DNA of 64,000 nucleotides from Myxococcales bacterium (GTDB lineage Bacteria; Myxococcota; Myxococcia; Myxococcales; Anaeromyxobacteraceae): the NCBI GenBank assembly GCA_021818285.1, contig JAKAEO010000002.1, positions 13,363 to 77,362 of the forward strand, written 5' to 3'. A program made the position numbers and the translations under genes. Positions 1 to 41,565 of the stretch are shown here, piece by piece (position 1 is the stretch's first letter; each line of letters begins with the position of its first letter). The notes beneath the pieces were generated by a model. It did no database searches and was not told the origin of the DNA. It was given only the letters and a program-made list of their open reading frames with translations.

Positions 1-359
1 GCCCCTGCCACTCGCGCAGGATCTCGCCCAGCACCGGGTGGATCGGCATCCACCGGACCACCTTCGTCTTCGTCCCACGCTTGTTGTAGGAGCGCGCCAC
101 GACGATGCGTCCGAGCGGACTCATCTCGAGTGTCACGTTCCGGAAGTGGAGCCCGCCCATCTCGCCGACGCGAAGGGCGGCGAGACCCAGGAGCGCGTTC
201 GCCACGCGCTCGTGCTCGGGGATGCTGGTCGCGCTCACGAGGGAGACAAGCTCCTCTCGCGTGTACTGGGCCTTGGCTCGCCACTCGGGATCCGCATCGA
301 CGATCTGCGGGAGCTGCGCGCGGCCGAGGATGCAGGGGGAGGCGTCGATGAGCCCCTCG
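1..359 (-). pseudogene. Phage-type tyrosine recombinase/integrase fragment, 5'-truncated by the IS insertion, with its 3' end beyond the window edge
   Basis: Minus-strand translation reads ...IPEHERVANALLGLAALRVGEMGGLHFRNVTLEMSPLGRIVVARSYNKRGTKTKVVRWMPIHPVLGEILREWQG, which matches the integrase catalytic-core Arg box and the K beta-hairpin region. There is no start codon; the reading frame abuts the IS left end at 360. Confidence 0.6.
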
Positions 360-404
360 TGGGCTTGATCCGGTTTGGTGGACACCAAGTGAAAGGCGGT
401 TACG

Positions 405-725
405 GTGTCCGACATGGCCGGAGAGACCAAGCAGCGGAGGCAGCGTAGGAGCTACACCGACGAGTTCAGGGCGGACGCGGTTCGCCTGGTCCTGACGGGA
501 GGGAAGAGCCTCCCGCAGGTGGCTCGGGACCTCGACCTGACGGAGTCCTCGCTGAGGACCTGGGTCGACCGGGCGCGGGCGGACGTGGGCAAGGGCAAGC
601 CCGGGGTGCTCACCTCGGCCGAGCGGGAGGAGCTGGCGGAGCTGCGCAAGGAGGTCCGGATCCTCAGGATGGAGCGGGACATTCTAAAAAAAGCCGCGGC
701 CTTCTTCGCCAAGGAGAACAGTTGA
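405..725 (+). CDS. IS3-family transposase OrfA (HTH/leucine-zipper part)
   Basis: 106 aa, MSDMAGETKQRRQRRSYTDEFRADAVRLV...ELAELRKEVRILRMERDILKKAAAFFAKENS, typical of IS3/IS911 OrfA. Confidence 0.9.
   Translation: MSDMAGETKQRRQRRSYTDEFRADAVRLVLTGGKSLPQVARDLDLTESSLRTWVDRARADVGKGKPGVLTSAEREELAELRKEVRILRMERDILKKAAAFFAKENS
686..693 (+). promoter_or_regulatory. Programmed -1 ribosomal frameshift site A AAA AAG for an OrfAB fusion
   Basis: AAAAAAAG sits in the orfA/orfB overlap. orfA is in frame 0 and orfB in frame -1, the classic IS3-family arrangement. Confidence 0.7.
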
Positions 726-1591
726 GTTTCGCGTTCATCCACGCGGAGAAGGCCTTGTACCCGATCACCTTGATGTGCCGGTCGCTGAAGGTCTCGCGGG
801 CCGGCTACTACGCCTGGGTTGATCGCCCACCGTCGGCGCACGCCAGGGACGACAAGCAGCTCGCCGTCCTGGTCCGTGAGGTCCACGAGCTCAGCCGCAA
901 GCGGTACGGCGCTCCGCGCGTCCAGAAGGAGCTGGCGGCCACGAACGACGTCCACGTGAGCGCCAAGAGGGTCGGCCGCCTGATGCGCCAGGAAGGGCTC
1001 AGGGCGCGTCCCAGGCGGCGTTTCAAGTGCACGACGATGAGCGAGCACGACCAGCCGGTGGCCGCCAACGTCCTCGACCGGAACTTCGAGGCGGCGGCGC
1101 CGAACCAGAAGTGGGTCGGCGACACGACCGAGCTGCTTACCGGGAACGGCAAGCTGTTCCTGGCCGCCATCCTGGACCTGTACTCGAAGTTCGTCGTCGG
1201 GTGGGCGCTGTCGCCCGTGAACGACCGGCACCTGACCATCGCGGCGCTCGAGATGGCCATCGGCCGGCGCTGCCCGGGCGCCGGCCTCCTCCACCACTCC
1301 GACCAGGGCTGCACCTACGCGAGCGAGGACTACCAGAAGATCCTCTCCACCCGGGGCATCGACTGCAGCATGAGCCGACGCGGCAACCCGTACGACAACG
1401 CCGTCATGGAGAGCTGGAACTCCACCTTCAAGATGGAGTGCGGGGAGCGGTTCCTCAACAACGACGTGGCCAGGACCGAGGCGTTCGACTTCATCGAGGT
1501 GTTCTACAACCAGAAGCGGCTGCACTCGGCCATCGGCTACGTCAGCCCGGCCGAGTTCGAACGCCTTCACCGAAAGGCACGTGCAGCGTGA
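722..1591 (+). CDS. IS3-family transposase OrfB (DDE integrase core), -1 frame relative to orfA
   Basis: 289 aa with an rve/DDE core (WVGDTTEL..., HSDQGCTYAS, NAVMESWNSTFKMEC) and a C-terminal YVSPAEFE motif. It overlaps orfA in the -1 frame. Confidence 0.9.
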   Translation: MSFAFIHAEKALYPITLMCRSLKVSRAGYYAWVDRPPSAHARDDKQLAVLVREVHELSRKRYGAPRVQKELAATNDVHVSAKRVGRLMRQEGLRARPRRRFKCTTMSEHDQPVAANVLDRNFEAAAPNQKWVGDTTELLTGNGKLFLAAILDLYSKFVVGWALSPVNDRHLTIAALEMAIGRRCPGAGLLHHSDQGCTYASEDYQKILSTRGIDCSMSRRGNPYDNAVMESWNSTFKMECGERFLNNDVARTEAFDFIEVFYNQKRLHSAIGYVSPAEFERLHRKARAA

Positions 1592-1788
1592 GGATCGCGG
1601 TTCGTCAGGGTCGGGATCCGAAACGAGGCCCCTGGCTGGCCCCAGGAGCGACGATCTCCACCCCGGGGGCACCCCAGGTACCCCCCTTCTCCGCGCTCCA
1701 CCGAGACAGGTGGTACCCTGGCGAGGGACTGATCAGCAGGACCGAGAGTGAGCAGAAGGAACGCAGTCAACCTGTCTGCTGAACCGGA

Positions 1789-2913
1789 TCAAGCCCAGTT
1801 CTGGAAGGCCGCCAGGTGGCGCAGCTCGTTCACGAAGGCGGGAGGTAGGCCATCGCGCTCCACGAAGAGCCGCTGGGCCTGAACCACGCGGAGGGCACTT
1901 GTGAGCGCTGCACCTTGAGGAGGCCGCCTCCATTCTCCAGAAGGCGGCCTGAGCCACGGCGCCTCCTCCTCGGCAACGCCTGAGAACCTGGCGCCGACGA
2001 CACGGTCCTGACGATGGGCTTCTCGAGCGATGAGCTCGACGGTCTGTACCGGGATCCTCCCAACCGACGCCAGGAAGGTCCACTGGTCCTCGAAAGGGTG
2101 CAACTCGTCGTCGAGGAACACGGTGTTCTCGTGCTGTCTCGCCTCGTGCTGCAACGGCAGGGCGATGAGGTTGCCGAACCCGCCCTTAGGCATCGTGTCC
2201 TGGTTCGGAAAGAGCCGATCGTATGAGGCCATGCCGAGCGTCGGTCGACGGGTCATGGTCTCCGTGAGGAGGCAGCAACCGAGCCTTCTCGCCAAGTGTG
2301 CGGGGACTGCCGCATCGAAAAAGAACCAGGCATGCGCGCCGTTTCCAGAGCGCGACCTTTCGAGGACGGCTGGCACCCCGATCGCGCGGCAGGTCCCTGC
2401 GAACGCCAAGACGTCGTCGCGCCACCCCTCCTTGTCGAAGTCGATGGCCAGGAGGTGACACCGCTCATCCTGAAGCAGAGGGTAGACGCCCATCACGTGC
2501 CGACCCTGGAGGTGGTCGAGCACCACCTGGTCCGAGACGGGCCGGAACGCCTGGTGGGGACATTGGCCGCACTTCACGCGCGGCTTCTCGCAAAGGCCTC
2601 GGCGCCACTCGTTCGAGCAGGCCGGCGAGTAGCCCTTGGTGCCCTTGCGTGGGTTCGACCACGAGAGCGGGAAGACGTCGTCGCGCCCGCGGAAGAGGCT
2701 GCGGAAGAGCGCCACTTTCTCGTGAGGCGCTGCGGGAGTCGTGGCGCGCCGGGTCGGAGGTGGGGCGACGGCGATGGGAGGACCGGGGCTGGCAGCGAGC
2801 TCGTCGCGGAGTCGGGCGATCTGCGCCTCTACAGACCGCCGCTCCTCTTCCAGCTTCGCGAGGCGCGCCTCGAGGCGCGCGAGTTCCTGCTTGAAGGAGT
2901 CCTGAGGGCCCAT
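1789..2913 (-). pseudogene. N-terminal coiled-coil, zinc-ribbon and archaeo-eukaryotic-primase (AEP)-type primase-polymerase domain of a primase-helicase, 3'-truncated at the IS boundary
   Basis: Translation is MGPQDSFKQELARLEARLAKLEEERR...; there is a CxxC...CxxC zinc-ribbon; AEP motifs are present (LLAIDFD, SGNGAHAWFFF). It ends FQNWA* at 1789, which lies inside the IS right inverted repeat. Full-length homologues continue from here into a helicase domain. Confidence 0.6.
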
Positions 2914-3053
2914 CGTCGTCGTTCCGCCCGGATCACGAGACCCGAGGAGACCAGGGGGTTGAGGCGCAGCTCCAAACCCTAGCGGGGAACCCTGACTTCC
3001 GTTTGCGCCGGGCCCCCCATGGTTGTATGTATTTTCCGGGAAAGGAAGTACCA

Positions 3054-3635
3054 ATGCCCGTCGCGATCCACCTTCATCTCCGCCCGGGACGCGCCTACCG
3101 GACCAGGGATCTGGCCGGCTGGAGCGCCAACGCGCCGAGGCTCGCCAAGCGCTTGGTGCGAGAAGGCCAGCTCGTCCCCTTGGCCCACGGCCTCTTCGCC
3201 CACCCACGCAGGAGCCGCTTCGGTGATGTGCCGCCGACAGACGAGGAGGTCATGCGAGCCTTCCTCGATGGGGGGAGATTCGTCTTCACCGGGCCCGAGC
3301 GCTGGAACGCCCTGGGACTCGGGACCACCGCCCTGTTCGCGGCGCCGCTCGTCTACAACACCAAGCGCAGCGGAAGTTTCGAGCTCGGCGGTCGGCGGTA
3401 CGTCCTGCGCCGTGTGGCGTTCCCGGCTCGCCCGTCCGCGGAGTGGTTCGTCGTCGACCTCTTCGAGAACGCGGACCGCGCAGGGGCGGCGCCAGAGGAA
3501 CTGGCCAGGGCACTGCGCCGGGCAGTGGCCGCCAAGGCGTTCGACGGCGACCGCCTCCGCGACATGGCGCGGCGCTACGGGACTCGCCGGACCCAGGCTT
3601 TCGTCGAGAGCGCGCTCGAAGCGAACGGTCCATGA
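3054..3635 (+). CDS. abiEi: AbiEi-family antitoxin (type IV toxin-antitoxin / abortive-infection system)
   Basis: About 193 aa starting MPVAIHLHLRPGRAYRTRDLAGW.... It overlaps the next gene by ATGA and is partnered with an AbiEii nucleotidyltransferase. Confidence 0.7.
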   Translation: MPVAIHLHLRPGRAYRTRDLAGWSANAPRLAKRLVREGQLVPLAHGLFAHPRRSRFGDVPPTDEEVMRAFLDGGRFVFTGPERWNALGLGTTALFAAPLVYNTKRSGSFELGGRRYVLRRVAFPARPSAEWFVVDLFENADRAGAAPEELARALRRAVAAKAFDGDRLRDMARRYGTRRTQAFVESALEANGP

Positions 3636-4597
3636 GCTATCCACACGAAGAGCGCGACTTCGCCGACCTAGTGGCCGTGGTCGCCACCCGCCGCCGTCTC
3701 GCGCCGGCGCTCGTCGAGAAGGACTACTGGGTCACTCACGTCCTGTGGGGCCTGCACCGGCTCGGCCTGGAAGTCTGGTTCAAGGGGGGAACGTCGCTGT
3801 CGAAGGGCTTCGGCCTCATCGAGCGATTCTCGGAAGACCTGGACCTCAAGATCGAGTCGGGTGTCCTGCGAACGCTGCCACCCGTCAGGAACTGGAAGAG
3901 CGAAGGGACCAGGGCGGTGCACGAGCGGCAGGCGCACTTCAACGCGCTGCTGGACCTCATCGAGCTTCCCGGAGTCGAGGTCTCGGCGGACCCCACCTAC
4001 GAGGATCCATCGCACCGAAGCGCGCAGCTCCGCGCGGTCTACCGGGGCGCGCACCTGAGCGGCCTCGGCATGCTTCGGCCGTTCGTGCTCCTCGAGATCG
4101 GCGACGCCCGGGTGACACCCTTCGTCCGCAGGGACATGACCTCCTTCGTCCACGAGGAGCTCGGTGCACAGGGTCAGTTCGCCTCATTCGATGACAACAG
4201 GCCGAAGGGTGTCCGCTGCGTCCATCCGCTCGTGACGCTCATCGAGAAGCTGGACGCGCTCAGGCGACGCGTCCCCCGAGGCGATGTGGCACCGGCCGCC
4301 TTCGTCCGCCACTTCGAGGACGCGGCGCACATCGTCGCGGCGGAGGCCGAGTTCCCACCGCTCGAGGGGTACGATAGCCCGCGCACCCTCGCGGAGGAGA
4401 TGCTCGCCCAGCGCCAGGTGGCAGCGATCCCGTCGGTCGCCGACGCCGCGTTCAATCCGGACGGGGGGCCGCGCTTCGCCGAGATCCAGCGAGCGCACGA
4501 AGCGATCGCGCCGATGTTCTGGGGGCCTCGGATCGGCGTCGAGGAGGCCTGCAGTGCCATTCGGAGTTGGGTGGCGCGGCGACTGGGCGCGCCTTAG
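3632..4597 (+). CDS. abiEii: AbiEii/AbiGii-family nucleotidyltransferase toxin (DUF1814)
   Basis: MSYPHEERDFADLVAVVATRRRL...KDYWVTHVLWGL...FKGGTSLSKGFGLIERFSEDLDL carries the hallmark motifs of this family. Confidence 0.8.
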   Translation: MSYPHEERDFADLVAVVATRRRLAPALVEKDYWVTHVLWGLHRLGLEVWFKGGTSLSKGFGLIERFSEDLDLKIESGVLRTLPPVRNWKSEGTRAVHERQAHFNALLDLIELPGVEVSADPTYEDPSHRSAQLRAVYRGAHLSGLGMLRPFVLLEIGDARVTPFVRRDMTSFVHEELGAQGQFASFDDNRPKGVRCVHPLVTLIEKLDALRRRVPRGDVAPAAFVRHFEDAAHIVAAEAEFPPLEGYDSPRTLAEEMLAQRQVAAIPSVADAAFNPDGGPRFAEIQRAHEAIAPMFWGPRIGVEEACSAIRSWVARRLGAP

Positions 4598-4972
4598 GTG
4601 CTCGACGACTCGCGGCCGAAGGCTTGATCATCGCGAGGCCTCGTAGCGCATCGCCGATCCTCAGTGAACACCGTCGATAGAGTTCGCCTTCTTTCCGAAG
4701 TGCGCCTTCATCTGGATTTCATCCTTTGCCGCGTGCACTCGCGTTCCCCAGGGTACCCCGTCGTGGCGATCGCTCGCGCGCCAACGCCTTGATCCTTCTG
4801 GAATCCACCGTAAGTACGCCCACCTGTCCGTATTACAGTTGGCTGCTGCGCATCCGAGGTGCACTTCCGTGGGCTCAGGTGCACCAAGGGATCCGAATGT
4901 GCAGTCGGTGCGGCGACTTGGCGTACCTCAAGACTTTCAGTGATGACCTGGCCATTGGATATTGAATCCGAA

Positions 4973-5002
4973 GGCCAGAGGTTCAAATCCTCTGGGGCAC
5001 CC
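4973..5002 (+). other. tRNA 3'-end remnant (T-arm plus acceptor 3' strand) with no 5' half; looks like an island attachment-site repeat
   Basis: ccAGAGGTTCAAATCCTCTggggcacc has a canonical T-loop (GTTCAAATC) closed by a 5-bp stem, then 7 nt of acceptor and a discriminator. No matching 5' acceptor, D or anticodon arm lies upstream. It sits in a lower-GC 480-bp non-coding stretch. Confidence 0.45.
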
Positions 5003-5082
5003 GACTCGGTGAGGCTCTCCCGGGACCCCCTGAAGGGACCGTGACCTTGCTTAACAGGTCATAGTCGAATAAACATTCGACC

Positions 5083-6324
5083 ATGACTGTAGACGAGTAT
5101 CGGCTCAGCTACCAGGAGTGCCGCGAGGTGCTCCGGAAGCGCCTTGCGGAAGACGCTCCCGGTAGGATCCAGTTGCTGTCCGGTCCCCGCCAGGTGGGGA
5201 AGACGACTCTCCTCCTCGAGCTCGCCCGCGAGGCGGGCGGCAGCGCGATCTACGCCGCTGCCGATGCACCCGATGCCGCGCTGCCAGGCTTCTGGGACCG
5301 CCTGCTGGGGCGGGCCGAGGAAACGGCAAAGGCGCAGGGGCACGCGGTGGTCCTGCTCGACGAGGCGCACCTTCTCCACGACTGGGCCGCCCGCCTCAAG
5401 GGCGCGTGGGACCGCTTCAAGCGGAACGAGATCCCCATTCACGTCGTCGCCACGGGCTCCTCGGCGCTCCACCTGGCGACGGGCTCTCGCGAGAGCTTGG
5501 CGGGGCGTTTCGAGCGGCTCACGCTTGCCCACTGGTCAGCCAGATCCCTCGCTGAGGTCTTCAAGCTCGAGCCCTCGGCAGCCGCCGACCTCTTCGTGCG
5601 CTTGGGGTCGTACCCTGGCACCTTCGCGATGCGAGACGACTTGCGTCGCTGGTCGGCGTACGTGCGCGAGGCCATTCTCGAACCTGCGATCGGGAGGGAC
5701 ATCCTCGCCTTGGCCACGGTTCGACGACCCGCCCTGTTGCGACAGGTCTTCGGAATCGCCGCCTCGTCACCGGCTCGGATCGTCTCCTTGCAGAAGATCC
5801 AGGGGCAGCTGCAGGACAGGGGCGCTCTCGAGACCATCGCCCACTACCTTGCGCTGCTGGAGGAAGCGTTCCTGATCGCGCCGGTTCCGAAGTACTCCGT
5901 CCAGGCGGCGCGGCAACGCGCGGCACCACCCAAGCTCGTGACCCTTAACAACGCTCTCGTCGCGGCCGTGCATCCCGATGGAGTCGCCGCGGCGCAGGAC
6001 CCGGCCACCTTCGGCACCTGGGTCGAGAACGCCTGCCTCGCCTGCGCGTGGAATGCGGGGCAGCGTCTTCACTACTGGCGGGAGGAGCCACTGGAGGTCG
6101 ATGGGGTCATGGAAGGTTCCTGGGGTCGCTGGGCCATCGAGGTGAAGACCGGGAAGCTTCAGGCCACCGATCTCAACGGGTTGCTCGAGTTCGTGCGCCG
6201 TTTCCCGCGGTTCACGCCCCTCGTGGTCTGCGACGCTGGATCCGTGCCCACCGCCGAGCGCCTCGGGGTGCGAGCGGTTACCTGGCAGCAGTACTTGGTC
6301 AAGGGGCCCGGTCGGTCTGGCTGA
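5083..6324 (+). CDS. AAA+ ATPase with DUF4143 C-terminal domain
   Basis: The Walker A motif is GPRQVGKTT. The architecture is an N-terminal AAA domain plus DUF4143, 413 aa. Confidence 0.8.
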   Translation: MTVDEYRLSYQECREVLRKRLAEDAPGRIQLLSGPRQVGKTTLLLELAREAGGSAIYAAADAPDAALPGFWDRLLGRAEETAKAQGHAVVLLDEAHLLHDWAARLKGAWDRFKRNEIPIHVVATGSSALHLATGSRESLAGRFERLTLAHWSARSLAEVFKLEPSAAADLFVRLGSYPGTFAMRDDLRRWSAYVREAILEPAIGRDILALATVRRPALLRQVFGIAASSPARIVSLQKIQGQLQDRGALETIAHYLALLEEAFLIAPVPKYSVQAARQRAAPPKLVTLNNALVAAVHPDGVAAAQDPATFGTWVENACLACAWNAGQRLHYWREEPLEVDGVMEGSWGRWAIEVKTGKLQATDLNGLLEFVRRFPRFTPLVVCDAGSVPTAERLGVRAVTWQQYLVKGPGRSG

Positions 6325-6457
6325 CGCCCCGCTCCCGACCTTGCCGACCATCTTCGCCCCGACGCCAGAACCACCACCTCCACGAGGCGCGAGGTGGACG
6401 GCGCCACGTTGCGCCGCAGCGCAACAGTCGCCTGGCCTGCTCCTCGACCATCGCCGC

Positions 6458-8047
6458 TCATCTGGCTCGAGGCCCGGGCTTTACCCCGATTCCCGCGAGC
6501 CATTGCCGCGCCCTCGCCTCGAGCTGCACGCTCTTGAACCCGAGCCACCGCTCGCGTTCCGCCGAGGAGTCCGCCAGGAAGCGCTTGAACCGCCCGAACG
6601 CGCCCTTGCCCGCGAGCGCGTCCTGGAGCCGCTGCCGGAGTGCCGGCTCGCGCACCGTCTGGACGAACTCCTCCATGTCCCGGTATGCGTGCCCGCCCTC
6701 CTCTGGCTCCACCAGCGCGAAGCGAGCGTCGTTCTCCATCACGTCCCGCGTCACCGGACCCTCGTCGGGCAGGTCTTCCGAGGTGAAGTGCAGCTCTCCG
6801 GACTCCCGATCGAGGTACCAGGCGTGCCCGGGTGCATGATCCTCGAGCGCGAGCATCAGGTCCTGCATGTTGACGTCGACGCTTCCCGGGCCCTGTCGCC
6901 AGACCGAGTATGGGTTGGCCCGCTCCTCCTCGCTCTCCTGCTGCTCCTCCCAGGTGAGCCCTCGCCGCGCGTCTTCGATCAGGAACCGCGCGCCCTGATT
7001 GTCCGATGGGTTGAGCCAGAGCATCCGCTCGAACACTCCGACCGCCTCCTCCCTCCTTCCGAGACGCCACAGGCACAAGCCGTAGCCGTGAAGGCATCGG
7101 AGAAACGGCCGGTTGTCGACAAGCCCCCATGGCAGCACGCCCTCGAAGCCGGCGCCGAGGCCGAGCTCGGCAATCCGCAGCCCGGCTTCGTAGTGCCGGA
7201 TCGCCAGTCGGGGTGAGTACTCGAACTCCTGGTTTCCGAGGTGCGCGTGCGCGTCAAGGCAGCGAAGGTCCCCTTCGAGCTGCTCCATGAGCAAGGCGCG
7301 CGCGCCGGCGTGATTCCCGGCCTCTCGCAGCTCCGCGGCCTCGGTGATGGGATCGGTGTCCCAGTTGGTCGGATCGGCGCCGGGGATCACCTGCTCCATC
7401 TCGAACTCGGGCCGCGGGCCGCGCGCCACCAGCGGCCGGGCCCACTCCGGAACGACGCCCTCCTCGCCCCAGTACTCCTCCGCCGGGTCCCAATCCGGGT
7501 GAGGCTCGAGCCGAAGGGGGACGAGATCGAGCCGATCGGCTTCGAGGCGTGAGCCCACGACCTCGCCGGAGGCGTACGGTCGGCCCGCATACCGCCAGGT
7601 CTTCTGGATTTGAATGGTCGCGATCTCCCCGGGCACCAAGCTGCCTACACTCTGGCAACGGAGCGTGAAGATGGCGCTCCCGCCCACGAGGCGGCACCTC
7701 GCCGCGGTCTTCTTCACGGCGAGGACGACCACCTCCGCGCGCGCGCCAATAGAGAGATCTGCCAGAGGCGCTGGAGCGGGCGCCGAGACGGACCGCTCGA
7801 TCCCGAGCATCGCCCGGTAGGCCGCGATCGTTCCGCGGAGGGGAGAAGAGGGCTCGACGTCGAGATCGGCGAGGGAGATCAGGTGAGTCATCCCCTTGCG
7901 CTCGACGCGTGCCACCAACCCGCGCCGATCGCCCTCGTGCTCGATGCAGAGCACCTGCACCCGCTCGCCCACGACCCTACCGGTCACGGGCGTGCGCAGC
8001 GCGGCCCGGGCCTCCGAGAGCAGCCGGGTGATGTCGCTGGAAGCCAT
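6458..8047 (-). CDS. Hypothetical protein with TPR-like middle region and C-terminal UPF0158 domain
   Basis: 529 aa. The C-terminus reads ...HAWYLDRESGELHFTSEDLPD...GKGAFGRFKRFLADSSAERERWLGF, which is UPF0158-like. The composition looks like clean coding sequence. Confidence 0.6.
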   Translation of the reverse strand: MASSDITRLLSEARAALRTPVTGRVVGERVQVLCIEHEGDRRGLVARVERKGMTHLISLADLDVEPSSPLRGTIAAYRAMLGIERSVSAPAPAPLADLSIGARAEVVVLAVKKTAARCRLVGGSAIFTLRCQSVGSLVPGEIATIQIQKTWRYAGRPYASGEVVGSRLEADRLDLVPLRLEPHPDWDPAEEYWGEEGVVPEWARPLVARGPRPEFEMEQVIPGADPTNWDTDPITEAAELREAGNHAGARALLMEQLEGDLRCLDAHAHLGNQEFEYSPRLAIRHYEAGLRIAELGLGAGFEGVLPWGLVDNRPFLRCLHGYGLCLWRLGRREEAVGVFERMLWLNPSDNQGARFLIEDARRGLTWEEQQESEEERANPYSVWRQGPGSVDVNMQDLMLALEDHAPGHAWYLDRESGELHFTSEDLPDEGPVTRDVMENDARFALVEPEEGGHAYRDMEEFVQTVREPALRQRLQDALAGKGAFGRFKRFLADSSAERERWLGFKSVQLEARARQWLAGIGVKPGPRAR

Positions 8048-8083
8048 TGCGGTCGCTCCTCCACGGAGTCGGGGCTCCCCTAT

Positions 8084-9091
8084 CTAACCCGATTCCCGTT
8101 CTGGGCGCTCAGCCACCAGGTCGAGCCCCCGGCGCCTCGAGCAGGCGTTCCAGCCGGCGGAGGTCTCGCATCGCGAGATCCACCCTGCCCCTCCGCAGCG
8201 CGTCGAGGACGGTCGAGACGGCGCGGAGCACGCCGGCTCGATCTGGTCGCATGTGCGACGCATTCCGCCGAGGTACTCCAGCGTGAAGCCTGCCGACCTG
8301 CACGTCGATCGCAGCCACCGCCTCGGCCATCCGCGGCCAGAGTGGATCCAACCGGCGGTAGAGGTCCTTCGCCTCCCGCGGGGATGGGTGGGTGACGATG
8401 TCGGCGAACCGCTCCAGATCCGGGCGCGCGGCGAGGACGAGGGAACGGAAGGTCGCGCGGGAGTCGGAATGGACGCGCTTGCGGAGGCCCAGGCGCGCAA
8501 GGTCGGCGGCGCAGCCACCTCGCCCGGCCGCAGGCCGGTCAAGAACTCGAGCGCGTAGGCGGCGCGGCGGAGCGCCGGTACACGCGCGGAGGTGAGGAGC
8601 TTCTCCAGTTCGTCCAGGGCCAGGAAGCCCCTCACCCTCCGGAGGGGATCGGCGTCCACGATGGCAGGAAGGTGCTTCCTGGCGTTCCACCGGCACGGGT
8701 TCGTGGAGAGCAACCCGTCCTCGACAGCCTCGCCGAAGACCGCCTTCACGGAGTCGGCGACGTTCTTGAGCGACCGGGGTGAGAGGGGTCTCGAGCCGTC
8801 CGCCCGGAGCCTGCCGGAGAGCGACCGCGCGTACGCAAGCATCCTCGGCGGCGCGACCGAGCGGAGCACCTCCCGCCCGAGCGCTGGGAACGCGTGAAGT
8901 CGCAGGCGGCGCTCGTGGTGGCGCCAGTCCAGCTTCTTCGCTCGCCGGCGACGGATGAGCCACGCTTTCGCATACTGCTCGAAGGTGAGGCCGACTCCGT
9001 CGTCAGGGTCGGCCAGTAGGTTGTCAGCATCGGGTTCCTGGACGGTGGCCCGGACCGCAGCAAGGAGGAGAGAGCTTGGCATCGAAGGCAT
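8084..9091 (-). pseudogene. Degraded tyrosine recombinase/integrase (frameshifted, possibly with an internal deletion)
   Basis: Frame A gives an integrase N-terminal and core-binding region up to FLTGLRPGEV (Arg I). Frame B (8109-8963) gives ...LRKRVHSDSRATFRSLVLAARPDLERFADIVTHPSPREAKDLYRRLDP (the H-x-x-R, H and Y boxes). The frame switches between about 8513 and 8596, and the approximately 40-aa Lys/beta-hairpin segment is missing. Confidence 0.55.
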
Positions 9092-9477
9092 TCCACCAGG
9101 CTTCGCGACGCTCGCGGCCGAAGCATCCGCAGGCTCCCAGGCGACAGGCCGCGATCCCCGGCGAGCTCCAGGTTGCGCTACAGCAGCGCCTGGAGAGGCA
9201 TTTTCGGTCCGAGTGGTCGAAGGCCGGCATCGACATCGTCGTCCGCTACCGGGGCCGCTTCGCCTACATCGGCTACTTGGAGCGCCGACGGGGAGAGCCC
9301 GAATCCGGCGCGCTGCCGCTGTTCAGACTCGAGTACACCGGCGACCCGCAGCGGTGGGTGTTTGCTCTGTTCACCTACAGCCACGAGGACTACGAGCTCT
9401 GCGCCGGGCCCACCGGCTCGTTCACCCCTACGCCCGAGCAGGCGTTCGACTGCGCGGCGCGTTTGTACCTGACCTGA
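9076..9477 (+). CDS. Hypothetical protein (conserved core IDIVVRYRGRFAYIGYLE...WVFALFTYSHEDYE); start uncertain
   Basis: 133-aa ORF. The Arg-rich first 30 aa overlap the integrase 5' end and are probably not translated. The conserved core follows, and the stop lies 4 bp before the next gene. Confidence 0.45.
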   Translation: MASKAFHQASRRSRPKHPQAPRRQAAIPGELQVALQQRLERHFRSEWSKAGIDIVVRYRGRFAYIGYLERRRGEPESGALPLFRLEYTGDPQRWVFALFTYSHEDYELCAGPTGSFTPTPEQAFDCAARLYLT

Positions 9478-9481
9478 CCCC

Positions 9482-10366
9482 GTGAGCGAGTACCAGTACT
9501 ACGAGTTCCTGGCCCTCGACGCGCCGTTGAGCCAGCGCCAGCAGCAGGAGCTGCGCGCGATCTCGTCGCGCGCGACCATCTCTTCCACCCGGTTCGCGAA
9601 CTTCTACACCTTCGGGGACCTCAAGGCCGACCCGGCGAGGCTCGTCGAACGGTATTTCGACGCGCACCTCTACCTTGCGAACTGGGGCACCCACGCACTC
9701 ACCTTTCGGTTCCCGAGCCGCCTTCTCGACCTGAAGACCGCGACCCGCTACTGCCGCAGCCGCGCCGCCTCGGCGCGCGCGAAGGGCGGATACGTCATCC
9801 TGGACTTCGCCTCCGAGGACGAGGAGTCGTCCGACTGGACCGACGAGGGCGACGGAACCGGTCAGGCCGCGGCCCTCTTCCCGGCGCGAGCCCTGATCGC
9901 CTCCGGTGACCGCCGGGCCCTCTACCTCGGCTGGCTCCTCGCGGTCCAGGACGGCGACCTCGCCGATTCCGAGGAGGAACCGCCATGCCCTCCCGGGCTC
10001 CGGGACCTCCCCGCCCCACTTGCGGCGATGGTCGACTTCCTCCGAATCGATCCGGACCTCTTCGTGGCAGCGGCGGCGGGGAGCGCCGATTCCCGCGACC
10101 CGAGCAGGAAGGAGCTCGTTCGGTGGGCGCGGTCGCTGCGGGACTCGGAGCGCGTAGCCCTCCTGGTGGAATTCGTGCAGGGAAGCGACCCGAGCCTTCG
10201 CCTCAAGGCGATGCAGAGCCTTCGAGCCTCGGAGCGGCAGGCGTCGGGCGGCAGCGCCAGGACACGAAGGACTGCTGGCCGCCTTCGCGCAGAGGCCGAG
10301 CGGCGTGGGGAGGCGCGACGGGAGGCGGAAACCAAGCGACCGAGCCGGAAGAGCGCGAGGCGATGA
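9482..10366 (+). CDS. Conserved hypothetical protein (MSEYQYYEFLALDAPL... family)
   Basis: 294 aa. The N-terminal 230 aa look like clean coding sequence; the C-terminal tail is Arg/Glu-rich. Confidence 0.55.
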   Translation: MSEYQYYEFLALDAPLSQRQQQELRAISSRATISSTRFANFYTFGDLKADPARLVERYFDAHLYLANWGTHALTFRFPSRLLDLKTATRYCRSRAASARAKGGYVILDFASEDEESSDWTDEGDGTGQAAALFPARALIASGDRRALYLGWLLAVQDGDLADSEEEPPCPPGLRDLPAPLAAMVDFLRIDPDLFVAAAAGSADSRDPSRKELVRWARSLRDSERVALLVEFVQGSDPSLRLKAMQSLRASERQASGGSARTRRTAGRLRAEAERRGEARREAETKRPSRKSARR

Positions 10367-10389
10367 CAAGCGGCACCAGCGTTTGCCTT

Positions 10390-10403
10390 GGGGGGGGGGG
10401 GGG
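10390..10403. repeat. G14 homopolymer tract in the intergenic region
   Basis: ccttGGGGGGGGGGGGGGccgatc is read directly from the sequence. It is the longest homopolymer in the window. Confidence 0.9.
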
Positions 10404-10475
10404 CCGATCGGTCGGCCTGCGCCATCGTCGCGGGAACTGCTCGGCCCCGTATACGCCAAGCAGACTGCGTTGGCT

Positions 10476-10510
10476 TTCATGACTAGTATAGGTTATCATA
10501 TGGTCATGAA
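10476..10510 (+). promoter_or_regulatory. Candidate vapBC operator: 8-bp perfect inverted repeat TTCATGAC-N19-GTCATGAA in an AT-rich island overlapping the vapB start
   Basis: The inverted repeat is seen directly in the sequence. It lies in the only AT-rich (about 35% GC) 60-bp stretch of the region, immediately 5' of the antitoxin gene. Confidence 0.4.
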
Positions 10511-10766
10511 AAGAGTCGGTATCGCCGATCTCAAGGCGCATCTGAGCGGACACCTGCGGACCGTGAAGAAGGGAGAGACCTTGGTCGTGGTAGATCGGGG
10601 CACGCCGGTGGCCCGGCTCGTGCCAGCGGGGGACCTGCGGGGCGCGGTCGTGACCCGTCCACCGACGCGAGACTTGGCGTCGGTGAGGCGGGTCCTGAAG
10701 GGCCTCCCACCGCTGGCCCTCCCGGTCGACAGCCTCGCGATCCTCCTGGAGGACCGTAAACGGTGA
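10500..10766 (+). CDS. vapB: Type II antitoxin (Phd/YefM/VapB-like)
   Basis: M(V)MKRVGIADLKAHLSGHLRTVKKGETLVVVDRGTPVARLVP.... The stop overlaps the vapC start. Start is either ATG 10500 or ATG 10506. Confidence 0.75.
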   Translation: MVMKRVGIADLKAHLSGHLRTVKKGETLVVVDRGTPVARLVPAGDLRGAVVTRPPTRDLASVRRVLKGLPPLALPVDSLAILLEDRKR

Positions 10767-11197
10767 TCGCGTACATCGATTCGTCGGTCATCCTCCGTCT
10801 GGTCCTGGGCGAGCACGATCCGCTCCGCGAGTGGCCGGACGTGACGCAGGGCGTCACGAGTTCGCTCGCGGAGGTGGAGGTGCTTCGCACGCTCGATCGC
10901 CTGCGGTTCTCGGTTCCGACCCTCGACTCGCGAGCGCTGGCTGGTCGGCGGGAAGCTGCGTTCCGACTCCTGGAAGGGCTCGAGACCGTGGAGATCACGC
11001 GCAGCGTGCTCGCCCGTGCCGCCCAGCCTCTCCCCACGCCGCTCGGGACGCTCGACGCGATCCACCTCGTCTCCGCCATGGGGTGGCGCGAGCAGTTCGA
11101 CGATCTGGTCTTCGCGACCCATGACCTCGCTCTGTCGGCGGCCGCTCGCGCGAGTGGCTTCGATGTCATTGGGACGACTCTGGAGACCGGACGGTAG
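10763..11197 (+). CDS. vapC: PIN-domain ribonuclease toxin VapC
   Basis: MIAYIDSSVILRLVLGE...LDAIHLVSAM.... The acidic residues of the PIN domain are at the expected spacing. There is a 4-bp overlap with the antitoxin gene. Confidence 0.85.
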   Translation: MIAYIDSSVILRLVLGEHDPLREWPDVTQGVTSSLAEVEVLRTLDRLRFSVPTLDSRALAGRREAAFRLLEGLETVEITRSVLARAAQPLPTPLGTLDAIHLVSAMGWREQFDDLVFATHDLALSAAARASGFDVIGTTLETGR

Positions 11198-11281
11198 GTC
11201 CGACGTGGTGCAACTGGTGCAGTCGGCCGTCCCCTACCCTCCCTCGTCGTCCTCGTTCGGCCAGAGATGATCACTCGAGCC

Positions 11282-11374
11282 GGAGTCGTTTCGAGGACTT
11301 GGAACCGCGTCGCCGATGCACACGGATCGTTGTAGTTCACCATTGGCGCGATTCGATTCCCGGCGCCTCCACCA
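11282..11374 (+). other. tRNA-like element or degenerate tRNA pseudogene ending ...GATTCGATTCCCGGCGCCTCCACCA
   Basis: The 3' end looks like a T-loop/acceptor/CCA. A possible 5' acceptor GGAGTCG lies about 93 nt upstream with one mismatch. The D and anticodon arms cannot be folded convincingly by eye. Confidence 0.25.
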
Positions 11375-11623
11375 CCTGACTACCGGACCTCACTCGGCTC
11401 GCTACCGCCGGGTGGGGTCGTCTCCAAACCGTTTCCAAACCGGGAGACGGGTCCGCCGTCCTGCTCGTCGTCGGCCGACCGGCGCGGTGGATCTCGAGGC
11501 CTTCCGGATGCGCGCTCGGGCGGCGTGGGCGGCATCCGGAGCGAGAAAGCCGTTCGATCGGGGCCCGGCGTAGCTACCCGAACGTTCCACCCCGGTCGTG
11601 CGCTCGCCCGCTAAGAGGGCAGA

Positions 11624-37622: not shown

Positions 37623-37672
37623 CGGTCTCGTTCTCCCGTCGGGATGGTGGGGGCCGTGCGGTCCGCCCGGGC

Positions 37673-39397
37673 TCAGTGGAACTCGCGCTGCGGGCCGGTC
37701 ATCGGCCCCGGCTTGTAGTGGCGCAGCAGGAAGTGGAGGTTCTTGCCCAGCACCTCGCGCAGGTCGGTGGGCATCACCAGCGAGGAGATGGAGCCGAGGG
37801 CCAGGCCCTCCTTCGGGTTCATCAGCTCCTTCTCGTAGCGCCGGTTCAGGGCCGCCTCCTGCCCCTTGAGCCACTCGGCCGCCTCCTTCTCCGCCTCCTT
37901 CCTGGCGGCGGCGCCCTCCATGCCGGCGGCGGTGCGCTCCTGCGTGCCCTTCTTCACCATCTCGGCGGCGGCGCCGCGGGCCTTGCGCAGCTCGTCCTTG
38001 TAGATGAACTCCTTGCCGGCCGGCCCCATCACCGCCAGGCGGGTGGTGGGGAGCGCCAGCACCAGGTCGGCGCCGGTGGGGTAGTTGTTGTAGGAGGCGT
38101 AGGCGCCGCCGAAGGCGTTGCGGAGGATCAGCAGGATGCGCGGGGTGCGCACGTCCACGATGGCGTCGAGCATCGAGCGGCCGGCCTGCACGATGCCCCG
38201 CGCCTCCTGCTCGCGGCCGGGGAGGAAGCCGGTGGTGTCCTCCATGAAGATGATGGGGATGTTGTAGATGTTGCAGAAGCGGACGAACCTGGCGATCTTC
38301 AGCGCCGAGTCGCAGTCGATCTGGCCCGAGGCCACCGCGCTGTTGTTCGCCACGAAGCCGACCACGTGGCCGCCCACCCGGCCGAAGGCGGTCACCACCT
38401 CCTTGGCGCGCTCCGGCTGCATCTCGAAGTAGTCGCCGTAGTCGCAGACCGCCTGGATGATGATCGACACGTCGAAGGGGGTGTTGAACCCGGTCGGCGA
38501 GTTGAAGGCCTTCTTCAGGAGCGTGTTGATCTCCCAGGTCTTGCGGTCGAGGGGATCGCTGGTCTCCTCGAAGGGCGGCGCCACCGCGTTGTTGTCGGGC
38601 AGGTAGGCGAGCAGCCGCACCGCCTGGCGCAGCGCCGCCAGCTCGTCGGCCACGGTGAGGTCGGCCACGCCCGAGGCGCCGTGGACCTTGGGGCCGCCCA
38701 GCTCCTCGGGGGTGATGTCCTCGCCCAGCACCGACTTCACCACGCCCGGGCCGGTGAGGCCGAAGAAGGTGTCGGCCGGCTGGATCACGAAGCTGCCCTG
38801 GCGCGGCAGGTAGGAGCCGCCGCCGGCGTTGAAGCCGAACATGCACATGATCGAGGGCACCACGCCGCTGATCTTCCGCAGCGCCGTGAAGGCCTCGGCG
38901 TAGCCGTCGAGCCCGCCCACCCCGGCGGGCACGAAGGCGCCGGCGCTGTCGTTCATGCCGATGAGCGGGATGCCCTTCTCGCCGGCCAGCCGGAAGAGGC
39001 GCGCCAGCTTGTTGCCGTTGGTGGCGTCCATCGACCCGGCGCGCACCGTGAAGTCGTGGCCGTAGCAGGCCACGTCGCGGCCGCCGACGTTCAGCACCGC
39101 GGTCACCAGCGAGGCGCCGTCCAGGTTCTTGCCCCAGTTCTGGTAGAGGACGATCGGGTCCTTGTCGGAGAGCACCCGCATCCGCTCCCAGACCGTCATC
39201 CGCTTCTTGGCGTGCTGCTTCTCGATCTGGTCGATGGGGATGGAGCGCAGCGGGCGCTGGACGAGGTCGTGCCCCTCCTTCATCACCTCCTCGTAGGGCC
39301 CGGTGGCGCGCGAGATCTCGCCGGGGATCGTGAACTCGACCTTCTCCTCGACGTCGAGGGGGTTCTGCAGGGTCGGCAGGATCGCCTTCTTCGACAT
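37673..39397 (-). CDS. Acyl-CoA carboxylase carboxyltransferase subunit (AccD/PccB family)
   Basis: 574 aa with tandem crotonase-like carboxyltransferase domains (...[15 protein letters not shown]..., ...[13 protein letters not shown]...). An RBS is present. It is co-operonic with the biotin carboxylase/BCCP gene. Confidence 0.85.
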
Positions 39398-39674
39398 GGT
39401 CGGTTCCTCAGGCGTGTGGGGCGCTTCCAAGAGATCCGGGCGGCGCGGGGCCCGGTTGCCCGGCGGCGGGACGGGCCTCGCGCTGCGGCGGGCCGGCCGG
39501 CCACCCCGCCGTCCGTCCGCGGCCCTCCCGTTTGGGGAGCGGGCATCCTGACAAGGCGCGGCCGCCGAGGCAAGCGCTTCCCCGTGCCGCGGCGCGGCGT
39601 CTCGGCGCGGCGCGTCACGCGGGGCCGGGGGCTGGTAGGCTCCTCTCCGCGGGCCGCCGCCCCGAGGAGGAGCC

Positions 39675-41559: not shown

Positions 41560-41565
41560 ACCTCC

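What the first reader, a model, noticed from the sequence alone, without database searches (positions are those of the whole stretch)
1..5082. Remnant integrative island: integrase fragment, IS3, primase-helicase truncated exactly at the IS inverted repeat, AbiE pair, and a tRNA 3'-end att-like repeat
The IS3 element's 16-bp perfect inverted repeats define its ends precisely at 360 and 1797. Neither flank shows a target-site duplication. The two flanking genes are unrelated partial genes: an integrase missing its 5' end, and an AEP primase gene whose stop codon lies inside the right inverted repeat. That pattern indicates IS insertion followed by IS-mediated deletion or rearrangement, not simple insertion. 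About 3 kb downstream, a tRNA T-arm/acceptor remnant with no 5' half sits in a lower-GC non-coding stretch, as expected for the duplicated att site at an island border. The DUF4143 ATPase beyond it would then be chromosomal backbone. The AEP-helicase genes of this type belong to poorly characterised conflict systems.
Basis: partly seen in the sequence, partly recalled or inferred. Interest (0 to 1): 0.5.

Follow-up and report, generated by a model that had tools for sequence, protein, structure and literature searches.

The report
Decayed defence island at tmRNA gene
This stretch is the broken-down inner half of two mobile "defence islands" inserted one after the other at the bacterium's tmRNA gene, with a jumping gene (IS3) that has deleted parts of two island genes.

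Summary
An IS3-family element lies at 360-1797 with perfect 16-bp terminal repeats and no target duplication. To its left is a tyrosine integrase lacking its first 148 codons. To its right is an AEP-TOTE primase gene cut after codon 372, whose last two codons and stop lie in the IS repeat; homologues continue for 430-620 residues of SF2 helicase. An intact AbiEi/AbiEii pair and a 5'-truncated tRNA-like relic (4953-5001) follow.

The border call is wrong. The integrase's close relatives (82-84% identical) overlap the 3' end of the tmRNA gene (ssrA). In near-identical metagenome contigs, a 23-bp ssrA 3'-end core occurs three times in direct orientation:
- in the intact ssrA, 10.2 kb left of the window;
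- 440 bp left of the window;
- at window 11352-11374.

So two islands sit in tandem: island A (9.7 kb, restriction-modification plus OLD nuclease) and island B (11.8 kb, this finding). GC is 65-68% in the islands against 74% beyond them. The tRNA relic and the DUF4143 ATPase (PADLOC candidate PDC-S01) lie inside island B. Island B is immobilised: its integrase is truncated and no excisionase gene was detected.

In passing, AbiE pairs sit next to AEP-helicase genes in about 16% of 82 metagenome loci.

The parts
1..359 (-). C-terminal part of tyrosine integrase int1. It runs off the window start, and its N-terminal 148 codons are missing at the IS junction.
   Evidence: Translation. It is 82% identical to P0122 residues 149-426. 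DNA homology to the L101 integrase stops at base 359. Intact homologues overlap the tmRNA gene 3' end. The Pfam Phage_integrase match is only 21.6 bits, below the 27.1 cutoff.
360..1797 (+). IS3-family insertion sequence, 1438 bp. Inverted repeats 360-384 and 1773-1797 (first 16 bp perfect, TG...CA ends); orfA 405-725; A7 slippery run 686-692; orfB 722-1591 in the -1 frame.
   Evidence: There is no flanking direct repeat (TCG versus GTT). The closest plasmid-borne IS3 transposases are under 50% identical.
1789..2913 (-). Truncated AEP-TOTE primase-polymerase gene (374 codons). Codons 1-372 are genuine; W373, A374 and the stop (1789-1797) are read from the IS right repeat. The SF2 helicase part is missing.
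   Evidence: PF22548 E=6.8e-97 over residues 65-293. Homologues continue ...FQN|PEFYKKQ.... All 80 metagenome matches stop at query residue 372, and most uninterrupted reading frames run on 430-620 aa. Full-length forms carry ResIII/DEAD/Helicase_C, with or without DUF559.
2914..3053 (.). Divergent intergenic region between the AEP gene and abiEi, 62% GC. Presumed to hold both promoters (inferred).
   Evidence: No promoter test was run.
3054..3635 (+). AbiEi antitoxin / transcriptional regulator, 193 aa, apparently intact.
   Evidence: PADLOC AbiEi E=3e-59, covering model positions 8-190 of 191. Pfam AbiEi_4 scores 22 bits, below the cutoff of 25.
3635..4597 (+). AbiEii nucleotidyltransferase toxin, 320 aa, apparently intact. 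Its start overlaps the abiEi stop by 1 nt.
   Evidence: Pfam PF08843 E=4e-21. PADLOC AbiEii E=2e-43.
4953..5001 (+). Relic of the 3' two-thirds of a tRNA gene (anticodon arm, variable loop, T arm, acceptor 3' strand). Single copy, degenerate, and internal to the island.
   Evidence: Rfam tRNA 5'-truncated hit, 23.6 bits, E=0.0026 in an 88-nt search. Not detected by ARAGORN, at the Rfam gathering score, or in a 501-nt Rfam search. The T-loop motif is unique in the window. It is 72% identical over 54 nt to a tRNA-Arg(ACG) in L016. No partner copy was found.
5083..6324 (+). AAA_14/DUF4143 ATPase, a PADLOC candidate defence protein (PDC-S01). It is island cargo, not backbone.
   Evidence: Pfam; PDC-S01 E=1.9e-95. 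It lies between the att copies, and its GC is 68%.
6458..8047 (-). 529-aa protein with a C-terminal UPF0158 domain and weak TPR matches. Function unknown.
   Evidence: No PADLOC hit. A 56%-identical homologue lies 5 kb from an AEP-helicase gene in L074.
8510..9091 (-). N-terminal relic (about 195 codons) of a second tyrosine integrase, int2. It ends just after the first catalytic Arg motif.
   Evidence: It is 38-40% identical to int1 over 70 aa and 34% identical to P0122 residues 61-217. A shorter relic sits at the same place in the related element L101.
9076..10366 (+). Two ORFs of unknown function (133 aa at 9076-9477; 294 aa at 9482-10366).
   Evidence: Called as genes in L001. No Pfam or PADLOC match.
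10500..11197 (+). Phd/YefM antitoxin (10500-10766) and PIN toxin (10763-11197), a type II toxin-antitoxin pair at the distal end of island B.
   Evidence: Pfam matches. It is 80% identical in DNA to the same pair at the distal end of the ssrA element in L101.
11352..11375 (+). Distal att site of island B: a direct repeat of the last 23 nt of the tmRNA gene (TTCGATTCCCGGCGCCTCCACCA). A 24th base is shared with the middle copy.
   Evidence: It is identical to L105 345-367 (inside the intact ssrA) and to L105 10081-10103 (window -462..-440). The flank 11286-11373 is homologous to the distal end of the L101 element. GC steps up to the right.
11383..11439 (-). 19-codon relic resembling the C-terminus of the island-A integrase, just outside the last att copy. 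It may be the trace of a still older occupant of the site.
   Evidence: tblastn with intA residues 419-437: 74% identity, E=5e-4. The flanks downstream of att copies 1 and 3 are similar.

Best explanation
Window 1-11375 is most of "island B", the older and outer of two genomic islands inserted in tandem at the 3' end of the tmRNA gene (ssrA) of a high-GC bacterium.

How the islands formed (established model for tDNA islands, e.g. Islander, PMC4383910): each island entered by tyrosine-integrase recombination between its own copy of the last ~23 nt of ssrA and the gene itself. This regenerates ssrA and leaves a displaced copy of the core at the far end of the island.

Order on the + strand:
- ssrA
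- island A: intA, xis, a HATPase_c_3 protein, an XhoI-like restriction-modification pair, an OLD nuclease
- att core
- island B: int1 (truncated), IS3, AEP-TOTE (truncated), AbiEi-AbiEii, tRNA relic, DUF4143/PDC-S01 ATPase, UPF0158 protein, int2 relic, two unknown ORFs, Phd-PIN
- att core
- chromosome

What happened inside island B (inferred): an IS3-family element inserted. A deletion next to it, or recombination between two IS copies, then removed three things:
- the first 148 codons of int1;
- DNA upstream of int1, where related elements carry an excisionase gene (none is detectable in island B);
- the whole helicase half of the AEP-helicase gene.

This left the IS without a target duplication and fused its right repeat to codon 372 as a new stop.

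Consequences:
- Island B can no longer excise by itself, and its primase-helicase defence gene is dead.
- AbiE, the PDC-S01-type ATPase and Phd-PIN look intact.

Shown: the anatomy, the three att cores, the truncation points and the homology to intact ssrA elements. Inferred: the order of events and the deletion mechanism.
For: - IS anatomy and missing target duplication.
- Truncation points coincide with the IS ends. The integrase DNA homology to L101 (82%) ends at base 359, and the protein alignment starts at residue 149 of 445. AEP homology ends at residue 372 in all 80 metagenome loci. Most of those reading frames that are not cut by a contig end or a frameshift continue 430-620 aa, with helicase domains.
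- ssrA targeting. The intact homologues P0122 (84%) and P0129 (66%) lie tail-to-tail with a tmRNA gene and overlap its 3' end. The int1 C-terminus "WWRRRES" is the reverse reading of that 3' end.
- Three direct copies of the 23-bp core exist, one of them inside a full-length tmRNA gene (ARAGORN; Rfam 132.8 bits). The contigs carrying them are 99.9% identical to the window.
- The element in L101 shares the integrase, an int2-like relic, Phd-PIN and the distal att flank, in the same order.
- GC: island A 65%, island B 68%, the rest of the window 74%.
- No homologue of the L101 excisionase is found in island B.
- Cargo is defence-type.
Against: - The intact ssrA and two of the three att copies lie outside the window. 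They were read from metagenome contigs that are 99.9% identical, not from the source genome itself.
- No relative with an empty site was examined.
- The deletion mechanism is inferred only from the missing target duplication and the two truncations. A reciprocal junction elsewhere in the genome (inversion or translocation between two IS copies) cannot be excluded, because the genome was not available.
- That island B once carried an excisionase gene is assumed from related elements, not shown.
- The tRNA-like relic and the int2 relic are not explained by this model alone.
- The Pfam integrase scores for int1 and int2 are below their gathering cutoffs.
Confidence: 0.85

Rival explanations
1. 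One reading: the island ends at the tRNA-like fragment (4953-5001). That fragment is the duplicated att site of a tRNA-targeting integrase, and the DUF4143 gene begins the chromosomal backbone.
For: The fragment is truly tRNA-derived. It sits in a 58.8% GC non-coding stretch.
Against: - There is no second copy in the window or in 10.5 kb upstream.
- No genome in the 185,579-species collection has a tRNA with this T arm and acceptor. This test is weak, because the source genome is not in that collection.
- int1 belongs to an ssrA-targeting lineage, and ssrA-core repeats bracket the region out to 11375.
- GC stays at 68-70% until about 11.4 kb.
- Phd-PIN and the distal att flank beyond DUF4143 are homologous to the end of the related element L101.
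- DUF4143 matches the defence candidate PDC-S01.
Confidence: 0.04
2. Nested or merged element: the segment AEP...UPF0158 (about 1.8-8.1 kb), together with the tRNA relic and the int2 relic, comes from a second integrative element that targeted a tRNA gene. It became incorporated into the ssrA island, and the tRNA relic is that element's att scar. This adds to the best explanation rather than replacing it.
For: - In L101 the interval between xis and the int2-like relic is about 270 bp, against over 6 kb here.
- int2 is a different integrase, 34-40% identical to int1 and P0122.
- AEP-helicase genes often lie near tRNA genes: ARAGORN found tRNA genes in 15 of the AEP-helicase loci. The relic's best match is a tRNA-Arg(ACG) 170 nt from such a gene in L016.
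Against: - There is no repeat partner and no int2 C-terminus.
- The int2 relic is also present in L101, which lacks this cargo. The difference could equally be a deletion in L101.
- The relic is too decayed to assign a parent tRNA.
Confidence: 0.3
3. Assembly artefact: the int1-IS-AEP join is a chimera made by a short-read assembler walking through a multi-copy IS.
For: Logan contigs from several samples all break 290-390 nt inside the IS, from either side. That is the behaviour expected of a repeated sequence.
Against: - The same join is found in the window and in contigs from four ENA assemblies (ERZ27237538, ERZ27237563, ERZ27237587, ERZ27237541).
- Both sides belong to one ssrA element by independent criteria: an ssrA-type integrase on the left, and an ssrA-core repeat with an L101-like distal end on the right.
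Confidence: 0.04
4. Plain IS insertion without rearrangement: the IS simply landed between two genes that were already adjacent and already short.
For: None beyond the presence of the IS.
Against: - There is no 2-5 bp target duplication.
- Both genes lose homology to full-length relatives exactly at the IS ends.
- The AEP stop codon is supplied by the IS.
Confidence: 0.02

Closest known systems
Genomic islands integrated in tandem at the tmRNA gene (ssrA), as catalogued by Islander (PMC4383910) and described for Dehalococcoides ssrA islands (PMC3146451)
   Same: A tyrosine integrase gene sits tail-to-tail with ssrA. The island supplies a replacement 3' end, and a displaced copy of the ssrA 3' end marks each far border. 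Islands are stacked successively, and their GC is lower than the host's.
   Different: The outer island has lost its integrase N-terminus and has no detectable excisionase gene, through an IS-associated deletion. The cargo is almost entirely phage-defence and toxin-antitoxin genes.
IS3-family insertion sequences
   Same: Size 1.44 kb, TG...CA inverted repeats, orfA (HTH) and orfB (DDE/rve) in frames 0 and -1 with an A7 slippery run, and an NCBIfam IS3 score above cutoff.
   Different: There is no target-site duplication at this copy. The transposase is under 50% identical to any plasmid-borne IS3 transposase searched, so the element is an unnamed member.
AEP-TOTE primase-polymerase fused to an XPB/RadD-like SF2 helicase (Pfam PF22548; the PADLOC 'PrimPol' model labelled as cas-associated)
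   Same: The N-terminal coiled-coil and the complete AEP domain are present, 55-63% identical to homologues.
   Different: The helicase (and, in the longer class, the DUF559 nuclease) is deleted. No TPR-OB or TBP partner genes of TOTE systems (as defined in PMC12458937, citing Aravind et al. 2022) were seen here, and no conserved neighbour of that kind emerged among 82 related loci. To my knowledge the family has not been tested experimentally.
AbiE type IV toxin-antitoxin / abortive-infection system (PMC3985639)
   Same: A bicistronic abiEi-abiEii pair with overlapping stop and start, a DUF1814 nucleotidyltransferase toxin, and a full-length match to the PADLOC AbiEi model.
   Different: Here it lies divergently next to an AEP-helicase gene, an adjacency that recurs in other loci. 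Activity was not tested.
PADLOC candidate system PDC-S01 (AAA_14 + DUF4143 ATPase)
   Same: Full-length match, E=1.9e-95.
   Different: It is only a candidate defence gene, with no known mechanism.

Membership tests
ssrA (tmRNA gene)-integrated genomic island | Tyrosine integrase gene at the island end next to the target gene | tested here: met
   int1 is 82-84% identical to integrases that overlap tmRNA genes. Island A has an intact 437-aa integrase directly after ssrA. int1 itself is truncated.
ssrA (tmRNA gene)-integrated genomic island | Direct repeats identical to the 3' end of the target gene at both island borders | tested here: met
   The 23-bp core is present three times in direct orientation, including window 11352-11374.
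ssrA (tmRNA gene)-integrated genomic island | Intact, regenerated target gene at the proximal end | tested here: met
   A full-length tmRNA lies at L105 20-367 (ARAGORN; Rfam 132.8 bits against 47). It is outside the window, on a 99.9%-identical contig.
ssrA (tmRNA gene)-integrated genomic island | Empty site in a related genome | not tested
   No close relative's genome was available. The source genome is not in the representative-genome collection.
IS3 family | DDE (rve) transposase made from two overlapping frames by -1 frameshifting | tested here: met
   NCBIfam NF033516: orfA matches model positions 1-86 and orfB 91-369, 320.8 bits against 160. An A7 run lies in the overlap.
IS3 family | Terminal inverted repeats ending TG...CA | tested here: met
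IS3 family | Short target-site duplication flanking the element | tested here: not met
   The flanks are TCG and GTT, with no match at 2-5 bp. This is explained by a later deletion or recombination and does not argue against family membership.
AEP-TOTE primase-helicase | AEP-TOTE domain | tested here: met
   PF22548, 324 bits against 27.
AEP-TOTE primase-helicase | C-terminal SF2 helicase in the same polypeptide | tested here: not met
   The gene ends at codon 372 plus 2 IS codons. Homologues carry ResIII/DEAD/Helicase_C. It is a truncated remnant of a member.
TOTE conflict system (TPR, OB, TBP, effector) | Neighbouring TPR-OB and TBP genes | tested here: inconclusive
   None was recognised in the window or as a conserved neighbour in 82 loci. 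The 529-aa UPF0158 protein has only weak TPR hits. No dedicated profile search for TBP or OB was run.
AbiE type IV toxin-antitoxin system | Adjacent abiEi and abiEii (DUF1814 nucleotidyltransferase) genes in one operon | tested here: met
   Genes at 3054-3635 and 3635-4597 with a 1-nt overlap. PADLOC E=3e-59 and 2e-43. Pfam AbiEii is above cutoff; AbiEi_4 is below.
AbiE type IV toxin-antitoxin system | Toxicity neutralised by AbiEi; abortive infection | not testable with these tools
   Needs experiment.
tRNA gene / tRNA-derived att repeat | Complete cloverleaf, or a second identical copy attached to an intact tRNA gene | tested here: not met
   Only model positions 24-71 are present, at 23.6 bits against 29. 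ARAGORN finds nothing. No second copy exists in the sequence available.

The most novel reading that the evidence does not exclude
AbiEi-AbiEii pairs may be functional partners of the AEP-TOTE primase-helicase, acting as a sensor/regulator or second effector in a three-gene (sometimes four-gene, with an SNF2 helicase) defence module. They would then be more than chance neighbours.

For this reading: AbiEii genes lie within 3 kb of the AEP-helicase gene in 13 of 82 unrelated metagenome loci. That is 14 hits in 325 kb against 1 in 307 kb farther out. They are often co-directional with gaps of only 16-90 nt, and the window itself and its closest named relative (an Anaeromyxobacter sp. Fw109-5 protein) show the same neighbourhood.

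Against it: there is no co-divergence of the two genes (Spearman -0.07). The AbiE pairs are very diverse. AbiE also persists here after the helicase was lost.
Probability: 0.2. Interest if true: 0.45.

Novelty: new member of a known kind. Interest (0 to 1): 0.2.

Why it matters
As it stands this is routine genome archaeology, but it has three uses.
- It corrects the island map. The borders are tmRNA-gene repeats, not the tRNA relic, so the cargo list (AbiE, the PDC-S01-type ATPase, Phd-PIN, and upstream a restriction-modification pair and an OLD nuclease) can be read as one ~21.6-kb defence hotspot at ssrA.
- It gives a clean example of how an IS can both kill a defence gene and lock an island in place, by removing its integrase N-terminus and the adjoining DNA.
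- The recurrent AbiE / AEP-helicase adjacency is a cheap, testable lead for an uncharacterised defence gene family.

Tried and rejected
- Exact-sequence look-ups of the two IS transposase ORFs found nothing, because the deposited copies differ by a residue. Other IS copies and a possible reciprocal junction therefore could not be traced.
- Two scans of the representative-genome collection for the tRNA relic gave 0 hits (exact T arm plus acceptor) and 9 hits (T stem degenerate). None of the 9 is a tRNA gene. The source genome is evidently not in that collection.
- From memory I first read the relic as a tRNA-His remnant (C at the discriminator position, GUG-type acceptor) with a UUG-like loop. 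Nothing supported this. The best real match is a tRNA-Arg(ACG), at 72%.
- I tested whether the relic is a tmRNA 3' end. It is not: its T arm and acceptor differ from the ssrA sequence.
- jackhmmer seeded with the window's AbiE proteins under-detected neighbours. It was replaced by profiles built from two seeds.
- Neighbour clustering by all-vs-all BLAST was dominated by shadow ORFs in high-GC DNA. Only the lower-ranked clusters were informative.
It was reached instead through the last homology search.
- No second IS copy exists in any sequence in hand.

Full report
**1. What is in the sequence**

The region is high-GC DNA (66-70%). An IS3-family element occupies 360-1797.
- The 16-mer TGGGCTTGATCCGGTT occurs only at 360-375(+) and 1782-1797(-), against 0.03 expected. 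The inverted repeat extends to 25 nt at 84% complementarity.
- orfA (405-725) is HTH_Tnp_1. orfB (722-1591, -1 frame) carries rve domains.
- Together they cover the NCBIfam IS3 model: orfA matches positions 1-86 and orfB 91-369, at 320.8 bits against a cutoff of 160.
- An A7 run at 686-692 lies in the overlap.
- The flanks read ...CCCTCG | IS | GTTCTGG..., so there is no 2-5 bp target duplication.
- The transposase is under 50% identical to any plasmid-borne IS3 transposase searched.

**2. The two cut genes**

*Integrase (left of the IS, minus strand).* The frame at 1-359 translates to an integrase-like sequence.
- With upstream DNA from a 99.9%-identical metagenome contig (L001 = window + 4918), it aligns at 82% identity to residues 149-426 of a 445-aa integrase, P0122.
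- DNA homology to that relative's gene stops at base 359, the last base before the IS.

*AEP primase (right of the IS, minus strand).* The ORF 2913->1789 is an AEP-TOTE primase-polymerase (PF22548, E=7e-97, residues 65-293).
- Its last homologous codon is N372 (1798-1800). W373, A374 and the stop are read from the IS repeat.
- In 80 related metagenome loci, every match ends at query residue 372.
- Where they are not cut by a contig end or a frameshift, the reading frames continue another 430-470 aa or 600-625 aa.
- Full-length proteins are AEP + ResIII/DEAD/Helicase_C, some with a C-terminal DUF559 nuclease. The helicase is XPB/RadD-like.
- About nine loci carry frameshifts or internal stops, but helicase-coding DNA always follows. 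No homologue ends naturally here.

**3. The AbiE pair and the tRNA-like piece**

- AbiEi (3054-3635) and AbiEii (3635-4597) are full-length by PADLOC (E=3e-59 and 2e-43). AbiEii also passes Pfam.
- The 485-bp non-coding stretch after them has 58.8% GC.
- At 4953-5001 it holds a piece that matches the Rfam tRNA model only as a 5'-truncated hit (positions 24-71, 23.6 bits, below the 29-bit gathering score).
- ARAGORN, Rfam at gathering score and a 501-nt Rfam search do not report it.
- The T-loop motif GGTTCRAATCC is unique in the window, against 0.02 expected. The piece is therefore truly tRNA-derived, but degenerate.
- Its best match among tRNAs in hand is a tRNA-Arg(ACG), at 72% over 54 nt.
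- It has no second copy in the window or in the upstream contigs.
- Its T arm plus acceptor is absent from 185,579 representative genomes. A degenerate version found nine sites, none of them a tRNA gene. The source genome is not in that collection, so this test is weak.

**4. Where the island really ends**

- The closest intact relatives of int1, P0122 (84%) and P0129 (66%), each follow an HTH_17 excisionase gene. They lie tail-to-tail with a tmRNA gene and overlap its 3' end.
- The conserved integrase C-terminus "WWRRGESNPGP" is the reverse reading of the tmRNA T arm and acceptor. int1 keeps "WWRRRES".
- Searching with the tmRNA 3' end found the core TTCGATTCCCGGCGCCTCCACCA at L001 4456-4478 (window -462..-440, under the int1 3' end) and at window 11352-11374, both on the + strand.
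- Farther upstream, a full-length tmRNA gene lies at L105 20-367 (L105 = window + 10543, so window -10523..-10176). ARAGORN reports the tag ANEPMALAA and Rfam scores it 132.8 bits. It ends in the same 23-bp core.
- Directly after it comes an intact 437-aa integrase with an HTH_17 gene.

The resulting map is:
- ssrA
- island A, 9.7 kb: intA, xis, a HATPase_c_3 protein, an XhoI-like REase, an Eco57I-like MTase, an OLD-family nuclease
- att core
- island B, 11.8 kb
- att core
- chromosome

GC is 65% in island A, 68% in island B and 74% in the remaining 52.6 kb of the window.

**5. Independent support from a related element**

The 4.9-kb ssrA element in L101 shares four features with island B, in the same order:
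- the integrase (82% in DNA);
- a short int2-like relic (window 8820-9019);
- the Phd-PIN pair (80%; window 10478-11176);
- the distal att flank (window 11286-11373).

Both sides of the IS therefore belong to one ssrA element. This argues against an assembly chimera, even though several Logan contigs break inside the IS, which suggests the IS is multi-copy. Contigs from four ENA assemblies carry the same join.

**6.

- The tRNA relic and the DUF4143 gene lie inside island B.
- DUF4143 is a full-length match to the PADLOC candidate defence protein PDC-S01 (E=1.9e-95).
- Also inside island B are a UPF0158 protein, the N-terminal 195 codons of a second, different integrase (int2, 8510-9091), two unknown ORFs, and Phd-PIN.
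- Just outside the last att copy is a 19-codon relic resembling the island-A integrase C-terminus. It hints at an even older occupant of the site.

**7. Most likely history (inferred)**

1. Island B integrated at ssrA.
2. Island A integrated later into the regenerated ssrA end and pushed B outward. This is the standard model for tDNA islands (PMC4383910; tandem ssrA islands in PMC3146451).
3. An IS3 element inserted within island B.
4. A deletion next to the IS, or recombination between two IS copies, then removed at least 1.7 kb on the basis of homologue lengths:
   - the int1 5' end (444 bp);
   - the DNA upstream of int1, where L101 and L103 carry an excisionase gene (one search finds no homologue of the L101 gene here);
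   - the AEP gene's helicase half (1.3-1.9 kb).

Island B is therefore immobilised and its primase-helicase is dead. AbiE, the PDC-S01-type ATPase and Phd-PIN appear intact. Island A looks complete and may still be mobile; this was not tested.

**8. What stays unexplained**

The origin of the tRNA relic and of int2 is not settled. One reading, at about 0.3, is that the AEP-to-UPF0158 segment came from a second, tRNA-targeting element that merged into the ssrA island.
- In L101 the corresponding interval is only about 270 bp.
- AEP-helicase loci often lie near tRNA genes: ARAGORN found tRNA genes in 15 of these loci.
- However, L101 also has the int2-like relic, so a deletion in L101 explains the difference equally well.

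**9. A side observation**

- Among 82 non-redundant loci with AEP-helicase genes, profile searches found AbiEii genes within 3 kb in 13 loci. That is 14 hits in 325 kb, against 1 hit in 307 kb farther out (binomial p=0.001).
- Some pairs are co-directional with gaps of 16-90 nt; others are divergent, as in the window.
- The closest named relative of the window's AEP protein is from Anaeromyxobacter sp. Fw109-5 (P0002, 63% identical). Its locus also has an AbiE pair, with an SNF2 helicase in between.
- The AbiE pairs are very diverse and show no co-divergence with the AEP domain (Spearman -0.07).
- The adjacency is therefore real, but a functional link is not shown.
- I found no paper that describes it. 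TOTE systems are defined by TPR, OB and TBP partners (PMC12458937), and none of these was seen as a conserved neighbour here.

**10. Verdict**

The observations are mostly right, but the border and the att assignment are wrong. The object is a decayed member of a well-known kind: tandem genomic islands at the tmRNA gene, with an IS-associated deletion. Interest is low. The only mildly novel lead is the AbiE / AEP-helicase neighbourhood.

Noticed in passing
L105 20-10103 (window -10523..-440), outside the window: An intact tmRNA gene is followed by an apparently complete 9.7-kb island A: a 437-aa integrase, an HTH_17 excisionase, a 638-aa HATPase_c_3 protein, an XhoI-like REase plus an Eco57I-like MTase, and an OLD-family ATPase-Toprim nuclease. 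It is bounded by the same 23-bp ssrA core.
   Followed up: partly
82 loci L008-L091 (for example L028 upstream flank, L032, L061, L074): AbiEi/AbiEii pairs lie directly beside AEP-TOTE helicase genes in about 16% of loci (13 of 82), a 13-fold enrichment over the more distant flanks. Both co-directional and divergent arrangements occur. There is no co-divergence.
   Followed up: partly
L008 6849-9857; L051 6040-8667: A large SNF2-type helicase (best PADLOC matches ZorD and DpdE) is a second recurrent neighbour of the AEP-helicase gene, in 6 loci. In the L008 locus of the Anaeromyxobacter-like homologue P0002 it sits between AbiE and the AEP gene.
   Followed up: no
L008, L010, L014, L023, L024, L035, L043, L045, L077: About 9 of roughly 68 AEP-helicase genes not cut by a contig end carry frameshifts, an internal stop or an insertion, while the helicase-coding DNA is retained. 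Several database proteins (P0002, P0020, P0022, P0098) are such broken forms. These are either frequent recent inactivation or assembly errors in high-GC DNA.
   Followed up: partly
window 11383-11439 (-): A 19-codon relic resembles the C-terminus of the island-A integrase and lies immediately outside the last att copy. The flanks downstream of att copies 1 and 3 are similar, which suggests an older, eroded occupant of the ssrA site.
   Followed up: partly
window 8510-9091 (-) and L101 5754-5952: The N-terminal relic of a second integrase (int2) is conserved in position between island B and the smaller related element L101. It therefore predates their divergence.
   Followed up: partly
L005, L006, L007, L107, L108 contig ends: Logan contigs from several samples all terminate 290-390 nt inside the IS, from either side. 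This suggests the IS is multi-copy in these genomes.
   Followed up: no
L001 5323-5643 versus window 405-725: In L001 the IS orfA product reads ...ILNKAAAFF where the window's reads ...ILKKAAAFF. A base change inside the A7 slippery run may reduce frameshifting in that copy.
   Followed up: no
window 35000-43000: A second stretch has lower GC (0.65-0.72, minimum 0.647 at 42-43 kb) than its 0.75-0.79 surroundings. It may be another acquired segment.
   Followed up: no
L103 89-11311: A 66%-identical ssrA integrase carries quite different cargo: a DnaG-type primase, a Replic_Relax relaxase, a deaminase, and Prok-JAB and ThiF genes. This integrase lineage evidently moves varied cargo, including mobilisation-type genes.
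   Followed up: no
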